A stretch of 64,000 nucleotides of DNA from Gammaproteobacteria bacterium Ga0074134 (GCA_001464965.1 LNEJ01000065.1:4548-68547), one strand, 5' to 3'. Positions 35,813 to 39,783 are shown, counted from the stretch's first letter. Notes: generated by a model not told the origin, from the letters alone. Made by a program: numbers and translations.

Positions 35813-38020
35813 ATGGGTACCCCAATCGCAACCAGCATCCCGGCTTTCTGTGAAGGCATTCAATACTTCGCCGAAGCCCTGCCCGGCTTTGAGGAATATG
35901 CCGCACATCCGGCCATCGCCGCAGGGCAGAGCGCCGTGGCTGATCCTGGCGATGCGCGCGCGGTATTCCAAACCCTGCTGGGGGCGGATGCACTGCGCTA
36001 CCTCACTCTGCAAATGACGGGCTCCAAGGCCTCCGGCCATCCGGGCGGGTTTGCCAGCAGCGCCGAGGCCTACGCCTCGCTGGTGATGCTGGGGCACACC
36101 AACATCGTCACCGAGGTGGGGCATCATGCCCCAGGTTTTTACAGCGCCATGTTCATGGATTCCTCGCTGGAGGAGATGGGCATCAACACGGTGCAAGACC
36201 TGCGTGCGCGCTTCCGCGAGAAGCACGGCTTGCTTGGTCACCTCTCTGGCGCCATTCCCGGCATTCTCGCTCCCGCAGGGCCGCTGGGGCAGGGTCAGCA
36301 CTTCGCCATGGCGGGGGCGATGCTGCACCCTGGTACGCTGTTTCCCTTCACGCTCGGTGATGGCGGCATGGGCGAGCCGTATATCCTGAATGCCATGATG
36401 CACTTCCATGTTGCGTTTCCCGCGATCACCAACTTCCTGCCGGTGCTGATCTGGAATGGCTACAGCCAGGAGCATCACGCAATGGTCTCTTTATTCACCG
36501 ATGAGGAGATGATTGCCTACTGGAAGGGGCACGGCTTTGAGTCCGTGTATCTGGTGGACGCCAAGAATTTTGATGACGCGGGCCAGAGCGGTGCATTTGT
36601 GGATAGCACCCGCTTCTCGATGGGCAATCGTCTGGCATTCACGCGCGCCATGCTGGAAACCATGAGCGAGGCGGCGCAGTCCGCGCTGGGCGGCAAGCTC
36701 ACGGCCTTTATTGTCAAGCAGCTCAAGGGCTCGGGTGTGCATGCGCTGGGTGCGAAGTCGCACAACCTTTATCCCCAGCACACACTTGAAAACGTCGACG
36801 TTGTTGAAGGCCTCAAGCGCCGTGCGCTCTCCCCGCAGGCGTGGCAAATTGTGCGCGACAACTTCAGCCGCGCCGGTGGGGGGCCTGCCGCGCGCACCGT
36901 GGTGACAGAATCGGTGCTGGCGCTGACGCCGGTCACGCATTTGCCCTTGCAGGAGTTTGCTTTGGGTGAAAACAAGCCGCCGACCACGGCGATGGGCGCG
37001 CTGGTGGGCGCGGTGGGCAAGCAGGATGCGCGCTTTCTGGTGACCAATGCTGATGGCAACGAGGCCTCTGGTATCGGCAACATCAACGAGGCATTGAAGA
37101 TTCGTCATCCCACGGCAGATGCGCTGTACCACCAGACGCCTAACGGCCAGGTATACGAGCCGCTCAATGAAGACGCCTGCGCGGGTCTGGCGGTGGGATT
37201 GGCGCTGTTCGGCAGCCGCAGCCTGTGGTGCTCCTATGAGAGTTTTGCCATCAACGGCCTGCCGATTCTTCAGACCGTGACCCAGGCCATGGCTGAGCTG
37301 CGCCGCAAGACACCCAGCGTTGTCACGCTGTTTACCGCCGGTGCACTGGAGCAGGGCCGTAACGGTTGGACGCATCAGCGTCCGGAGATCGAGGCCTACT
37401 TCGCCGCCATGATGCGCAATGGAAACGTGTTCCCGGTGTTCCCGGTGGATGCCAACATGATCCAGGCCGCCTATGCCTGGGCGCTGGACAGCTATAACAA
37501 GGGTGTCATCATCACTGCATCAAAGAGCCCGTTGCCAGTCCGCACCACACTGGAACAGAGCCGCCGCGCGTTGGCCGATGGTGCGATTACGTTGTTTGAG
37601 CATCCCGGCGTGAAGACCATAGTGTTCGCGGTGGTGGGTGACATGATCCTGCTGCCTGTGTTCGAGGCAGCGGAAAAATTAAAGGCGGCGGGCTTTGGCG
37701 TGAAGATCGTCGCCGTGGTCAACCCGCGCCGTCTCTATCGCTCCACCGATGTGGCCTGGGACACGTGCTCGGAGCCGGACAATCTGTTCCTCGACGACGA
37801 CCATTTCAATGCCCTGTTCGATGGCGATGTGCTGTTGGGCGTGAGCGGCGGACCCAGTGGCACACTGGAGCCGGTCATGCTGCGCACCCGTGCGCCGAAG
37901 CGCGACGTGTTCGCCTGGAAGCGTGGTGAGACCACTGCCTCGCCTGCGGAGATCATGGGCTTTAACGGCCTGACGGGCGATAATCTGGCGCAACGGGCGC
38001 GGCAGTTGGCAGGGGTTTGA
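35813..38020 (+). CDS. Divergent phosphoketolase-family (TPP-dependent) enzyme.
   Basis: ~735 aa from the Met preceded by AGGAG. SGHPGG where Xfp has GHWGT. Xfp-like blocks WCSYESF, GWTHQRPE, PVDANM and GVIITASKSPLP. Shorter than canonical ~800-aa phosphoketolases. Confidence 0.65.
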   Translation: MGTPIATSIPAFCEGIQYFAEALPGFEEYAAHPAIAAGQSAVADPGDARAVFQTLLGADALRYLTLQMTGSKASGHPGGFASSAEAYASLVMLGHTNIVTEVGHHAPGFYSAMFMDSSLEEMGINTVQDLRARFREKHGLLGHLSGAIPGILAPAGPLGQGQHFAMAGAMLHPGTLFPFTLGDGGMGEPYILNAMMHFHVAFPAITNFLPVLIWNGYSQEHHAMVSLFTDEEMIAYWKGHGFESVYLVDAKNFDDAGQSGAFVDSTRFSMGNRLAFTRAMLETMSEAAQSALGGKLTAFIVKQLKGSGVHALGAKSHNLYPQHTLENVDVVEGLKRRALSPQAWQIVRDNFSRAGGGPAARTVVTESVLALTPVTHLPLQEFALGENKPPTTAMGALVGAVGKQDARFLVTNADGNEASGIGNINEALKIRHPTADALYHQTPNGQVYEPLNEDACAGLAVGLALFGSRSLWCSYESFAINGLPILQTVTQAMAELRRKTPSVVTLFTAGALEQGRNGWTHQRPEIEAYFAAMMRNGNVFPVFPVDANMIQAAYAWALDSYNKGVIITASKSPLPVRTTLEQSRRALADGAITLFEHPGVKTIVFAVVGDMILLPVFEAAEKLKAAGFGVKIVAVVNPRRLYRSTDVAWDTCSEPDNLFLDDDHFNALFDGDVLLGVSGGPSGTLEPVMLRTRAPKRDVFAWKRGETTASPAEIMGFNGLTGDNLAQRARQLAGV

Positions 38021-38102
38021 TGTAAGGTATAAAGTATCAGGCGCAGGCTCCGTGTGCTGCGCCTGATACATCACTCCATCAACACCTGCGAAAGGAAAGA
38101 AA

Positions 38103-38369
38103 ATGAAAAAATTATTTTCCGCGATTGTGTTCTCTGCGCTGGCTGTTCTCAGTGTTAACGTTTCTTTTGCCGCTGATGCGGAAAAGCTTGATGTCAACAC
38201 AGCCACTGAACAGCAGTTGACTACCTTGTCCGGCGTAGGTGAAGCCAGGGCCAAGGACATTATTAAGGGGCGCCCTTACAAGGCCAAGGATGATCTGGTG
38301 AAAAACAAAATCATTCCCCAATCAGTCTATGACAAGATCAAAGAAAAAATTATCGCCAAGCAGAAATGA
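38103..38369 (+). CDS. Secreted ComEA-like helix-hairpin-helix protein.
   Basis: 88 aa. Signal peptide. VNTATEQQLTTLSGVGEARAKDI HhH motif. Confidence 0.65.
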   Translation: MKKLFSAIVFSALAVLSVNVSFAADAEKLDVNTATEQQLTTLSGVGEARAKDIIKGRPYKAKDDLVKNKIIPQSVYDKIKEKIIAKQK

Positions 38370-38472
38370 TTCGGCAATAAAGCAGCCAAATGTATGGTGG
38401 GTTCGCGCTTTTTGCGCAACCCACCAAGCGTTGCGTAGCAACACAATAGCTTGAGTTTCCAAAGGCCGCGCA

Positions 38473-39783
38473 ATGACCACAACCAAAATCATCGTCCTAG
38501 ACGACGACCCCACCGGTTCACAGACTGTTCACGGTTGCCTGCTGCTGACACGCTGGGATGTCGACGCCCTCAAGGAGGCGTTGGCTGATGCCGCGCCGCT
38601 GTTCTTCGTGCTTACCAATACGCGAGGCATGAGTGCCGGGCGTGCTGCGGAAGTGACGCGTGATGTGTGCCGCAATCTGAAAATAGCGCTGAATGGAGCA
38701 GGCATCAACCCGGTGCTGGTGAGCCGCTCCGATTCAACGCTGCGCGGCCACTACCCCATCGAAACCGATGTGATCGCCGAAGAACTCGGGCCGTTCGATG
38801 CGCATTTTCTTGTCCCTGCTTTCTTTGAGGGCGGTCGCGTTACCCGTGACAGCATTCATTACCTCAAAGTGAATGGCGTGGATATCCCCGTGCATGAAAC
38901 CGAATTTGCGCGCGACTCAGTGTTTGGCTATCGCCACAGCTATCTGCCCGATTATGTGGAAGAGAAGACGGGCGGCCGTATTTCCGCAACTGAAGTTGAG
39001 CGTTTTCTGTTGGCGGATATCCGCCATGGCGTGCTCGACAGGTTGCTGGCTCTGGAAGGCAATCGTTGTGGCGCGGTGGACGCTGAGAATTACGATGATC
39101 TGGCGCGCTTCACGGCGGATGTGCGCGTGGCGGCAGGTCAGGGCAAGCGCTTTTTGTTCCGTAGCGCGGCGAGCCTGGTGAAGGCGCTGGCTGATTTGCC
39201 ACCCCAGCCGGTGGCTGCCGAGGCGATGAGTCAATTCACGCGCAATCACAGTCCCGGTGCTGTGATTGTTGGGTCTCACGTTGAGAAGAGCAGCCGCCAG
39301 TTGGCACGGCTGTTGGAAGAGGCCGGTGCAATGGGCATTGAAGTCGACGTGCGGCGGATTCCAGCAGAGCGCGATGCCGTGTTGCAAGACACATTGAAAC
39401 ACATCAATGCAGCCTATCAAGCTGGCAAAACAGCCGTGGTATATACGAGCCGCGGCGAAGTGCAATTCTCCGATCAGGCCGCGCGCCTGGCCTTCGGCGA
39501 AGCCGTATCTGCCCTGCTAATGGACGTGATACGCAACCTGCCGCAAGATCTGGGTTTTCTGATCGGCAAGGGCGGCATCACCTCCAACGACATGCTGAGC
39601 ACCGGCCTCGCATTACGCGCCGCTCGCGTCCTCGGCCAAGTCGCGCCCGGTGTTTCGGTGGTGCGCTGCCCTGCCGATCATCCGCGTTTTCCGGATATGC
39701 CGGTGGTGATTTTTCCGGGGAATGTGGGGGATGACGATACGCTGGCGCTGGTGTGCCGACGGTTTATGCGTGAGGCTGAGTAG
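38473..39783 (+). CDS. Four-carbon acid sugar kinase family protein (DUF1537/DUF2090; OtnK/DtnK-like).
   Basis: 436 aa. N-terminal IIVLDDDPTGSQT is characteristic of the YgbK/OtnK family. Confidence 0.7.
   Translation: MTTTKIIVLDDDPTGSQTVHGCLLLTRWDVDALKEALADAAPLFFVLTNTRGMSAGRAAEVTRDVCRNLKIALNGAGINPVLVSRSDSTLRGHYPIETDVIAEELGPFDAHFLVPAFFEGGRVTRDSIHYLKVNGVDIPVHETEFARDSVFGYRHSYLPDYVEEKTGGRISATEVERFLLADIRHGVLDRLLALEGNRCGAVDAENYDDLARFTADVRVAAGQGKRFLFRSAASLVKALADLPPQPVAAEAMSQFTRNHSPGAVIVGSHVEKSSRQLARLLEEAGAMGIEVDVRRIPAERDAVLQDTLKHINAAYQAGKTAVVYTSRGEVQFSDQAARLAFGEAVSALLMDVIRNLPQDLGFLIGKGGITSNDMLSTGLALRAARVLGQVAPGVSVVRCPADHPRFPDMPVVIFPGNVGDDDTLALVCRRFMREAE

What the first reader, a model, noticed from the sequence alone, without database searches (positions are those of the whole stretch)
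35813..39783. IclR-regulated operon pairing a divergent phosphoketolase-family enzyme with a four-carbon acid sugar kinase
The 735-aa TPP enzyme carries phosphoketolase-type blocks (WCSYESF, GWTHQRPE, PVDANM..A, GVIITASKSPLP). It replaces the near-invariant GHWGT N-terminal motif with SGHPGG and is ~70-90 aa shorter than canonical Xfp. It is co-transcribed with a DUF1537/DUF2090 kinase, the family that includes 3-oxo-tetronate, D-threonate and D-erythronate kinases. It sits under a divergent IclR regulator. Phosphoketolases normally act on xylulose-5-P or fructose-6-P, so a pairing with a C4 acid-sugar kinase suggests an uncharacterised route. The kinase product, or a derived keto-sugar phosphate, may be cleaved phosphorolytically to acetyl-phosphate plus a shorter unit. 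The usual partners of this kinase family (PdxA2-type dehydrogenase, class II aldolase, isomerase) are absent from the locus.
Basis: partly seen in the sequence, partly recalled or inferred. Interest (0 to 1): 0.78.

Follow-up and report, generated by a model that had tools for sequence, protein, structure and literature searches.

The report
Phosphoketolase-sister enzyme in an autotroph glycolate module
This stretch encodes an unusual relative of the sugar-splitting enzyme phosphoketolase. Its gene sits beside a kinase for four-carbon sugar acids and the three-part enzyme that oxidises glycolate, the by-product of RuBisCO's reaction with oxygen. The same set recurs in many CO2-fixing bacteria, and the relative alone is found in about a third of the cyanobacterial genomes sampled, which points to an unrecognised route for salvaging or converting small acids in autotrophs.

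Summary
The window encodes a 735-aa ThDP (thiamine diphosphate) enzyme (35813-38020, +) with only weak XFP/XFP_N/Transket_pyr domain matches. A DUF1537 (SBD_N+NBD_C) four-carbon acid-sugar kinase lies downstream, and an IclR regulator is divergent upstream. The enzyme belongs to a distinct clade that is sister to canonical phosphoketolase (Xfp) and outside transketolase (SH-aLRT 99). Its predicted fold is phosphoketolase-like. It keeps the ThDP and catalytic His residues and the Xfp-specific Tyr/Glu/Asn, but has lost the sugar-phosphate-binding His/Arg positions and gained arginines near the active site. Every genome that has it also has a canonical Xfp. The same 6 of 401 Pseudomonadota genomes sampled carry the enzyme and the kinase subfamily, and all six have RuBisCO. 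The enzyme is also in 67 of 201 cyanobacterial genomes sampled. I infer a pathway in CO2-fixing organisms that links glycolate/glyoxylate and a C4 keto acid, most likely via 3-oxo-tetronate. The exact reaction is untested.

The parts
34952..35719 (-). IclR-family regulator, divergent from the enzyme gene
   Evidence: HTH_IclR + IclR_C; nearest NCBIfam model BhcR (176 bits vs cut-off 350); conserved divergent position in 21+ loci
35720..35812 (.). intergenic promoter/operator region; SD AGGAG before ATG 35813
   Evidence: no strong inverted repeat found
35813..38020 (+). phosphoketolase-sister ThDP enzyme (735 aa)
   Evidence: weak XFP_N/XFP/Transket_pyr; sister clade to Xfp; phosphoketolase-like fold, TMq 0.74 to B. 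longum XFPK; active-site pattern
38103..38369 (+). small ComEA-like HhH protein with signal peptide; only in the closest relatives
   Evidence: HHH_3; TIGR01259 weak; found in L001-L008 only
38473..39783 (+). DUF1537 (SBD_N+NBD_C) four-carbon acid-sugar kinase
   Evidence: Pfam; nearest NCBIfam D-threonate kinase 74 vs 450 bits; same 6/401 Pseudomonadota genomes as the enzyme
41135..42625 (+). GlcD, FAD subunit of glycolate oxidase (TTG start at 41123 also possible)
   Evidence: NCBIfam PRK11230 882 vs 897, TIGR00387 564 vs 568; conserved in 16+ loci
42628..43695 (+). GlcE subunit of glycolate oxidase
   Evidence: NCBIfam PRK11282 536 vs cut-off 284
44496..45728 (+). GlcF Fe-S subunit of glycolate oxidase
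   Evidence: NCBIfam PRK11274 690 vs cut-off 333

Best explanation
The locus is a conserved, regulated metabolic unit of CO2-fixing (Calvin-cycle) autotrophs. An IclR regulator controls a phosphoketolase-sister ThDP enzyme, a DUF1537 kinase of the OtnK/DtnK type (enzymes that phosphorylate C4 acid sugars such as 3-oxo-tetronate and threonate) and GlcDEF glycolate dehydrogenase. Proposed mechanism: (1) GlcDEF oxidises glycolate, made from RuBisCO's oxygenase product 2-phosphoglycolate, to glyoxylate. (2) The ThDP enzyme, which keeps phosphoketolase/transketolase catalytic machinery but appears to bind a small carboxylated substrate rather than a sugar phosphate, forms the C2–C3 bond of a C4 keto acid: it adds an activated glycolaldehyde (C2 ketol) unit to glyoxylate, giving 3-oxo-tetronate. 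(3) The kinase phosphorylates 3-oxo-tetronate at C4. (4) 3-oxo-tetronate 4-phosphate, a beta-keto acid, decarboxylates to dihydroxyacetone phosphate (DHAP), either spontaneously or through an enzyme not yet found. The DHAP returns to the Calvin cycle, so the unit would be a glycolate-salvage shunt. Shown: the module's make-up and its conservation, the enzyme's lineage and fold, its active-site pattern, and its link to RuBisCO-bearing genomes. Inferred: the substrates, the direction of the reaction and the final decarboxylation.
For: GlcD/GlcE/GlcF sit in the module. The same layout (IclR, enzyme, kinase, GlcD, GlcE, GlcF) appears in all 5 other Pseudomonadota genomes that have the enzyme and in about 20 MAG loci. 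The enzyme and the kinase subfamily occur in exactly the same 6 of 401 sampled Pseudomonadota genomes, and all 6 carry form-I RuBisCO, against 140/401 genomes overall. The enzyme is in 67/201 sampled cyanobacterial genomes, and the four cyanobacteria examined carry the same kinase subfamily elsewhere in the genome. The enzyme is always an extra paralog beside a canonical Xfp, which points to a distinct function. It keeps the ThDP-binding GDG, the catalytic His residues (Xfp H64/H97/H142/H553 equivalents) and the Xfp-specific Y501/E502/N549. It has lost the transketolase H461 and R520 and the Xfp K561 sugar-phosphate-binding positions (now A/G and M) and gained arginines near the catalytic His (R469, R516, R523), a pattern that fits a carboxylate-bearing substrate. 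OtnK-type DUF1537 kinases phosphorylate 3-oxo-tetronate (established knowledge of this kinase family). The glyoxylate + C2 ketol product is exactly 3-oxo-tetronate (chemical inference). The nearest characterised regulator model is BhcR, a glyoxylate-pathway regulator (weak).
Against: No activity data exist. The direction could be the reverse (cleavage; see rival 1). No 3-oxo-tetronate 4-phosphate decarboxylase (OtnC) exists in the genome. The C2 donor is unknown: if the donor were a ketose phosphate, loss of the phosphate-binding residues would be odd. In cyanobacteria the enzyme is not next to the kinase or GlcDEF; its neighbours are a P450 and a Uma2 protein. The RuBisCO association is confounded by lineage (most positive Pseudomonadota genomes come from one family, f41, that is rich in RuBisCO). 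The genome has other FAD glycolate/2-hydroxyacid oxidases (C66, C79).
Confidence: 0.3

Rival explanations
1. Catabolic phosphoketolase chemistry on a C4 keto acid. 3-Oxo-tetronate (or its 4-phosphate, the kinase product) is cleaved between C2 and C3. Glyoxylate is released, and the C3–C4 unit on ThDP loses water (or phosphate) to acetyl-ThDP, which phosphate splits off as acetyl-phosphate. This is.
For: Retained Xfp-specific residues (Y217, Y501, E502, N549) and a phosphoketolase-like fold fit acetyl-ThDP formation. Substrate-site arginines fit a carboxylate. The kinase product could supply a phosphate leaving group.
Against: GlcDEF also produces glyoxylate, and the genome has no malate synthase to use it. 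No source of 3-oxo-tetronate is evident in autotrophs.
Confidence: 0.2
2. A short catabolic route for C4 acid sugars (D-erythronate/threonate; possibly damage products of erythrose-4-phosphate in the Calvin cycle). The kinase phosphorylates C4, the GlcD-type oxidase oxidises C2 to 2-oxo-3-hydroxy-4-phosphobutanoate, and the ThDP enzyme decarboxylates it to glyceraldehyde-3-phosphate (or cleaves it).
For: DUF1537 members include D-erythronate and D-threonate kinases (nearest NCBIfam model DtnK). GlcD-family enzymes oxidise 2-hydroxy acids. Transketolase-type enzymes decarboxylate 2-oxo acid donors.
Against: GlcE and GlcF are full glycolate-oxidase subunits, which suggests glycolate. The enzyme has lost phosphate-binding residues, yet this substrate is phosphorylated.
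Confidence: 0.15
3. An ordinary X5P/F6P phosphoketolase paralog (for example a differently regulated back-up); its neighbours are coincidental.
For: The phosphoketolase fold and catalytic residues are kept.
Against: 92 columns invariant in Xfp differ invariantly in this family, and only 58 of 324 are kept. The sugar-phosphate-binding residues are lost. A canonical Xfp co-exists in every genome. The neighbourhood is strictly conserved.
Confidence: 0.1
4. Glyoxylate carboligation by a transketolase/phosphoketolase-type enzyme (2 glyoxylate → tartronate semialdehyde + CO2), a convergent replacement for the ALS-type Gcl in a glycerate pathway, with the kinase acting on glycerate.
For: The genome has no Gcl above cut-off; GlcDEF supplies glyoxylate.
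Against: DUF1537 kinases are known for C4 acids, not glycerate, and no tartronate semialdehyde reductase is in the module.
Confidence: 0.1

Closest known systems
[quoted passage not shown] B. longum/B. breve XFPK, PDB 3AI7/3AHC)
   Same: Same ThDP superfamily fold; best structural matches TMq ~0.74. Best sequence relatives in PDB (E 1e-22). Keeps catalytic His and Xfp-specific Y501/E502/N549.
   Different: Sister clade, not inside Xfp. No GHWGT. Weak or absent XFP_C, about 80 aa shorter. Lost substrate-phosphate residues; E437→G; gained arginines. Always present in addition to a canonical Xfp.
Transketolase (TktA/TKT)
   Same: N-terminal SGHPG motif with P where Xfp has W. Weak Transket_pyr and TK model hits. 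Same fold class.
   Different: Falls outside the TK clade. Lacks TK H461 and R520 equivalents and the Transketolase_N/C domains at model strength.
3-oxo-tetronate / D-threonate / D-erythronate kinases (OtnK/DtnK/DenK, DUF1537) and their pathways to DHAP
   Same: The kinase has the same SBD_N+NBD_C architecture.
   Different: Not a member of any characterised equivalog (DtnK 74 vs 450 bits). The partners PdxA2, OtnC and OtnI are absent, replaced by a ThDP enzyme and GlcDEF.
GlcDEF glycolate oxidase (photorespiratory 2-phosphoglycolate salvage in bacteria and cyanobacteria)
   Same: GlcE and GlcF are equivalog members; GlcD is just under its cut-offs.
   Different: Here it is co-regulated with a ThDP enzyme and a C4-acid kinase rather than with glcB/gcl/glx genes.
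Cyanobacterial second phosphoketolase isozyme PKET2 (Synechocystis sll0529, Nostoc alr1850; PMC7744508)
   Same: An uncharacterised second phosphoketolase-like isozyme in cyanobacteria that also have canonical PKET1.
   Different: Whether PKET2 belongs to this clade was not tested; the paper places PKET2 with fungal and bacterial sequences, which may be a different group.

Membership tests
Xfp phosphoketolase (EC 4.1.2.9/4.1.2.22) | XFP_N, XFP and XFP_C domains at model strength | tested here: not met
   XFP_N 33.5 bits, XFP 47 bits, no XFP_C; NCBIfam PRK05261 85 vs 777-1518 bits. In a family member XFP_C hits only 1-100 of 202 positions.
Xfp phosphoketolase (EC 4.1.2.9/4.1.2.22) | GHWGT motif around H64 | tested here: not met
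   SGHPGG instead; the His is kept, W→P.
Xfp phosphoketolase (EC 4.1.2.9/4.1.2.22) | Place inside the Xfp clade | tested here: not met
   Separate clade (SH-aLRT 99) sister to Xfp (SH 99) on a long stem, rooted on transketolase.
Xfp phosphoketolase (EC 4.1.2.9/4.1.2.22) | Phosphoketolase fold | tested here: met
   AlphaFold model (pLDDT 78.5) matches B. longum/B. breve XFPK best, TMq 0.74.
Xfp phosphoketolase (EC 4.1.2.9/4.1.2.22) | Catalytic residues H64, H97, H142, H553, Y501, N549 (B. breve numbering, PMC11648648) | tested here: met
   All kept in 27/27 family sequences.
Xfp phosphoketolase (EC 4.1.2.9/4.1.2.22) | Conserved substrate-pocket residues (E437; phosphate-binding His/Lys) | tested here: not met
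   E437→G; transketolase H461-equivalent→A/G; Xfp K561→M.
Xfp phosphoketolase (EC 4.1.2.9/4.1.2.22) | X5P/F6P + Pi → acetyl-P activity | not testable with these tools
   Needs an enzyme assay.
Transketolase | Transketolase_N/Transketolase_C domains and clade | tested here: not met
   Only weak Transket_pyr; NCBIfam TK 39 vs 575 bits; outside the TK clade.
DUF1537 four-carbon acid-sugar kinase | SBD_N + NBD_C architecture | tested here: met
   E 1.5e-56 and 4e-38.
DUF1537 four-carbon acid-sugar kinase | Membership of a characterised equivalog (OtnK/DtnK/DenK/OiaK) | tested here: not met
   DtnK 74 vs 450 bits; OiaK 24 vs 700 bits.
Canonical OtnK/DtnK/DenK pathway to DHAP | PdxA2-type dehydrogenase and OtnC decarboxylase partners | tested here: not met
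   Single PdxA in the genome; its class II aldolase is MtnB, not OtnC.
GlcDEF glycolate oxidase | GlcD, GlcE, GlcF equivalogs | tested here: met
   GlcE 536/284 and GlcF 690/333; GlcD 882/897 and 564/568, just below cut-off.
BhcR-type IclR regulator | BhcR equivalog score | tested here: not met
   176 vs 350 bits; the nearest of several IclR models.

The most novel reading that the evidence does not exclude
A phosphoketolase-lineage ThDP enzyme joins glyoxylate (from photorespiratory glycolate) to a C2 ketol unit, making 3-oxo-tetronate. An OtnK-type kinase then phosphorylates it, and decarboxylation returns the carbon to the Calvin cycle as DHAP. This would be an unrecognised photorespiratory salvage route, free of ammonia release, in about a third of cyanobacteria and in many chemolithoautotrophs.
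Probability: 0.2. Interest if true: 0.85.

Novelty: new variant of a known kind. Interest (0 to 1): 0.62.

Why it matters
Photorespiration, the cleanup after RuBisCO reacts with O2, sets the efficiency of carbon fixation. Its known bacterial routes are the C2 cycle, the glycerate pathway, full oxidation and the BHAC. A new, widespread, gene-encoded route in cyanobacteria and chemolithoautotrophs would change models of autotroph carbon balance. It would also offer ready-made parts for synthetic photorespiratory bypasses. Even if the substrate turns out to be another C4 acid, this is an uncharacterised enzyme lineage present in about a third of the cyanobacterial genomes sampled, always beside a canonical phosphoketolase, with a new set of substrate-pocket residues. 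Its substrate and function can be tested directly.

Tried and rejected
I rejected the idea that the protein is a canonical Xfp or a transketolase because of weak domain scores, its place on the tree and its active-site pattern. I looked for the missing pathway partners elsewhere in the genome: PdxA2 (only one PdxA), OtnC (the class II aldolase is MtnB), glyoxylate carboligase (none above cut-off) and malate synthase (none). The Fic gene in the module looks like a recent lineage-specific insertion: relatives lack it, and there are no flanking repeats. I looked for an IclR operator palindrome (none strong) and an intrinsic terminator between the enzyme and the kinase (none). Literature searches found no description of this clade or of the module. 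The 9CD3 search led only to an unrelated Saccharibacterium phosphoketolase. PMC7744508 mentions a cyanobacterial PKET2, but whether it belongs to this clade was not tested. A complex prediction of enzyme with kinase was not run: the neighbourhood alone does not justify it.
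Full report
What is in the window. Between 34.9 and 45.8 kb the window holds a conserved gene set:
- an IclR regulator on the minus strand (34952-35719; HTH_IclR + IclR_C);
- divergent from it, a 735-aa ThDP enzyme (35813-38020, ATG after an AGGAG Shine-Dalgarno);
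- a small ComEA-like HhH protein (38103-38369);
- a DUF1537/SBD_N + NBD_C kinase (38473-39783);
- a Fic/DOC protein on the minus strand (39801-41021), present only in this genome;
- GlcD (41135-42625), GlcE (42628-43695), a GST (43755-44414) and GlcF (44496-45728). GlcE and GlcF are NCBIfam equivalogs well above cut-off; GlcD sits just under its cut-offs.
Pfam finds only weak XFP_N, XFP and Transket_pyr matches and no XFP_C. NCBIfam phosphoketolase models score 57-85 bits against cut-offs of 777-1518.

What the enzyme is. It has thousands of relatives, 71-97% identical, in Gammaproteobacteria, Betaproteobacteria and cyanobacteria, all annotated 'phosphoketolase' or 'transketolase'. On a maximum-likelihood tree with 11 canonical Xfp and 10 transketolases from the same phylum, the 27 family members form a clade (SH-aLRT 99) that is sister to Xfp on a long stem; it is neither Xfp nor transketolase. 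An AlphaFold model built from a 30-sequence alignment (pLDDT 78.5, pTM 0.81) matches B. longum/B. breve phosphoketolases best (TMq 0.74), above transketolases (TMq 0.57-0.65).

Active site. In the family:
- Kept: the ThDP GDG motif; the His equivalent to Xfp H64 (inside a transketolase-type SGHPG); H97, H142 and H553; the Xfp-specific Y217, Y501, E502 and N549 (numbering from PMC11648648).
- Changed: E437→G; the transketolase H461 / Xfp His phosphate-binding position→A/G; the transketolase R520 / Xfp K561 position→M. Arginines appear at Xfp-invariant sites next to the catalytic His: 'QDHNG'→'QGRNG' and 'SHQDP'→'THQRP', and Xfp H491→R.
- Overall, only 58 of 324 Xfp-invariant columns are kept identically.
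This pattern suggests a phosphoketolase-type ThDP catalyst that binds a small carboxylated substrate instead of a sugar phosphate (inference).

Distribution. The genome carries its own canonical Xfp (805 aa) and transketolase, so this enzyme is an extra paralog. The same is true of four cyanobacteria checked. In a sample of 401 Pseudomonadota genomes, the same 6 genomes carry the enzyme and the kinase subfamily. All 6 have form-I RuBisCO, against 140/401 overall; four of the six come from one lineage that is rich in RuBisCO, so the link is suggestive, not independent. In 201 cyanobacterial genomes sampled, 67 carry the enzyme, mainly the larger 3-8.5 Mb genomes. The named relatives are all CO2-fixing autotrophs: Thermithiobacillus, Sulfurifustis, Sulfuritortus, Sideroxydans, Nitrotoga, Thiobacillus, Gallionellaceae and Microcoleus. 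One Legionellaceae MAG contig is nearly identical to a cyanobacterial one and is probably mis-binned.

Gene neighbourhood. In all 5 other Pseudomonadota genomes the order is IclR (divergent)–enzyme–kinase–GlcD–GlcE–GlcF, and the same holds in about 20 proteobacterial MAG loci. In cyanobacteria the enzyme sits instead between a P450 and a Uma2 protein. There the same kinase subfamily is present elsewhere in the genome, 61-65% identical to the window kinase. The canonical partners of DUF1537 kinases are missing from the whole genome: there is a single PdxA, and the only class II aldolase is MtnB. There is also no Gcl glyoxylate carboligase and no malate synthase.

How it most likely works. The best-supported reading is a glycolate/glyoxylate and C4 keto-acid module in Calvin-cycle autotrophs (confidence about 0.3 for the specific chemistry; the module's make-up and conservation are shown):
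- GlcDEF oxidises glycolate, from 2-phosphoglycolate, to glyoxylate.
- The ThDP enzyme joins a C2 ketol unit to glyoxylate, giving 3-oxo-tetronate.
- The OtnK-type kinase phosphorylates 3-oxo-tetronate at C4.
- The beta-keto acid 3-oxo-tetronate 4-phosphate decarboxylates to DHAP, which goes back into the Calvin cycle.
Rivals:
- The reverse, phosphoketolase-type cleavage of 3-oxo-tetronate or its 4-phosphate to glyoxylate + acetyl-phosphate (0.2).
- A C4 acid-sugar catabolic route (0.15).
- An ordinary X5P/F6P paralog (0.1).
- Gcl-like carboligation (0.1).

Novelty and scores. The enzyme lineage is a new, uncharacterised subfamily of a known superfamily, with an unusual active site. The pathway, if confirmed, would be new. 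Novelty: new variant of a known kind. Interest 0.62: it is widespread in autotrophs, can be tested directly, and bears on photorespiration.

Noticed in passing
window 39801-41021 (-): A Fic/DOC protein adenylyltransferase (NCBIfam ProtAdlyltaseSoFic 162 vs 550 bits) lies between the kinase and GlcD only in this genome; relatives that are 96-97% identical lack it. There are no flanking repeats.
   Followed up: partly
window 38103-38369 (+): A small secreted ComEA-like HhH protein between the enzyme and the kinase, conserved only in the closest relatives (L001-L008).
   Followed up: partly
window 38370-38420: A strong GC-rich inverted repeat (hairpin) without a T-tract between the ComEA-like gene and the kinase; possibly an mRNA processing or stability element.
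   Followed up: no
window 43755-44414 (+): A GST-family gene between GlcE and GlcF, in only 3 relatives.
   Followed up: no
window 30971-34935: Type IV pilus/T2SS genes: a PilB-like ATPase, PilC and the PilD prepilin peptidase.
   Followed up: no
G000:C66 (L131) and G000:C79: Two further FAD 2-hydroxyacid oxidases: a 465-aa GlcD-like protein near tktA/gap/mtnB, and a 1296-aa FAD-oxidase/Fe-S fusion.
   Followed up: partly
cyanobacterial loci L051, L048, L070: In cyanobacteria the enzyme gene is flanked by a cytochrome P450 (divergent) and a Uma2 PD-(D/E)XK protein, a different neighbourhood from proteobacteria.
   Followed up: partly
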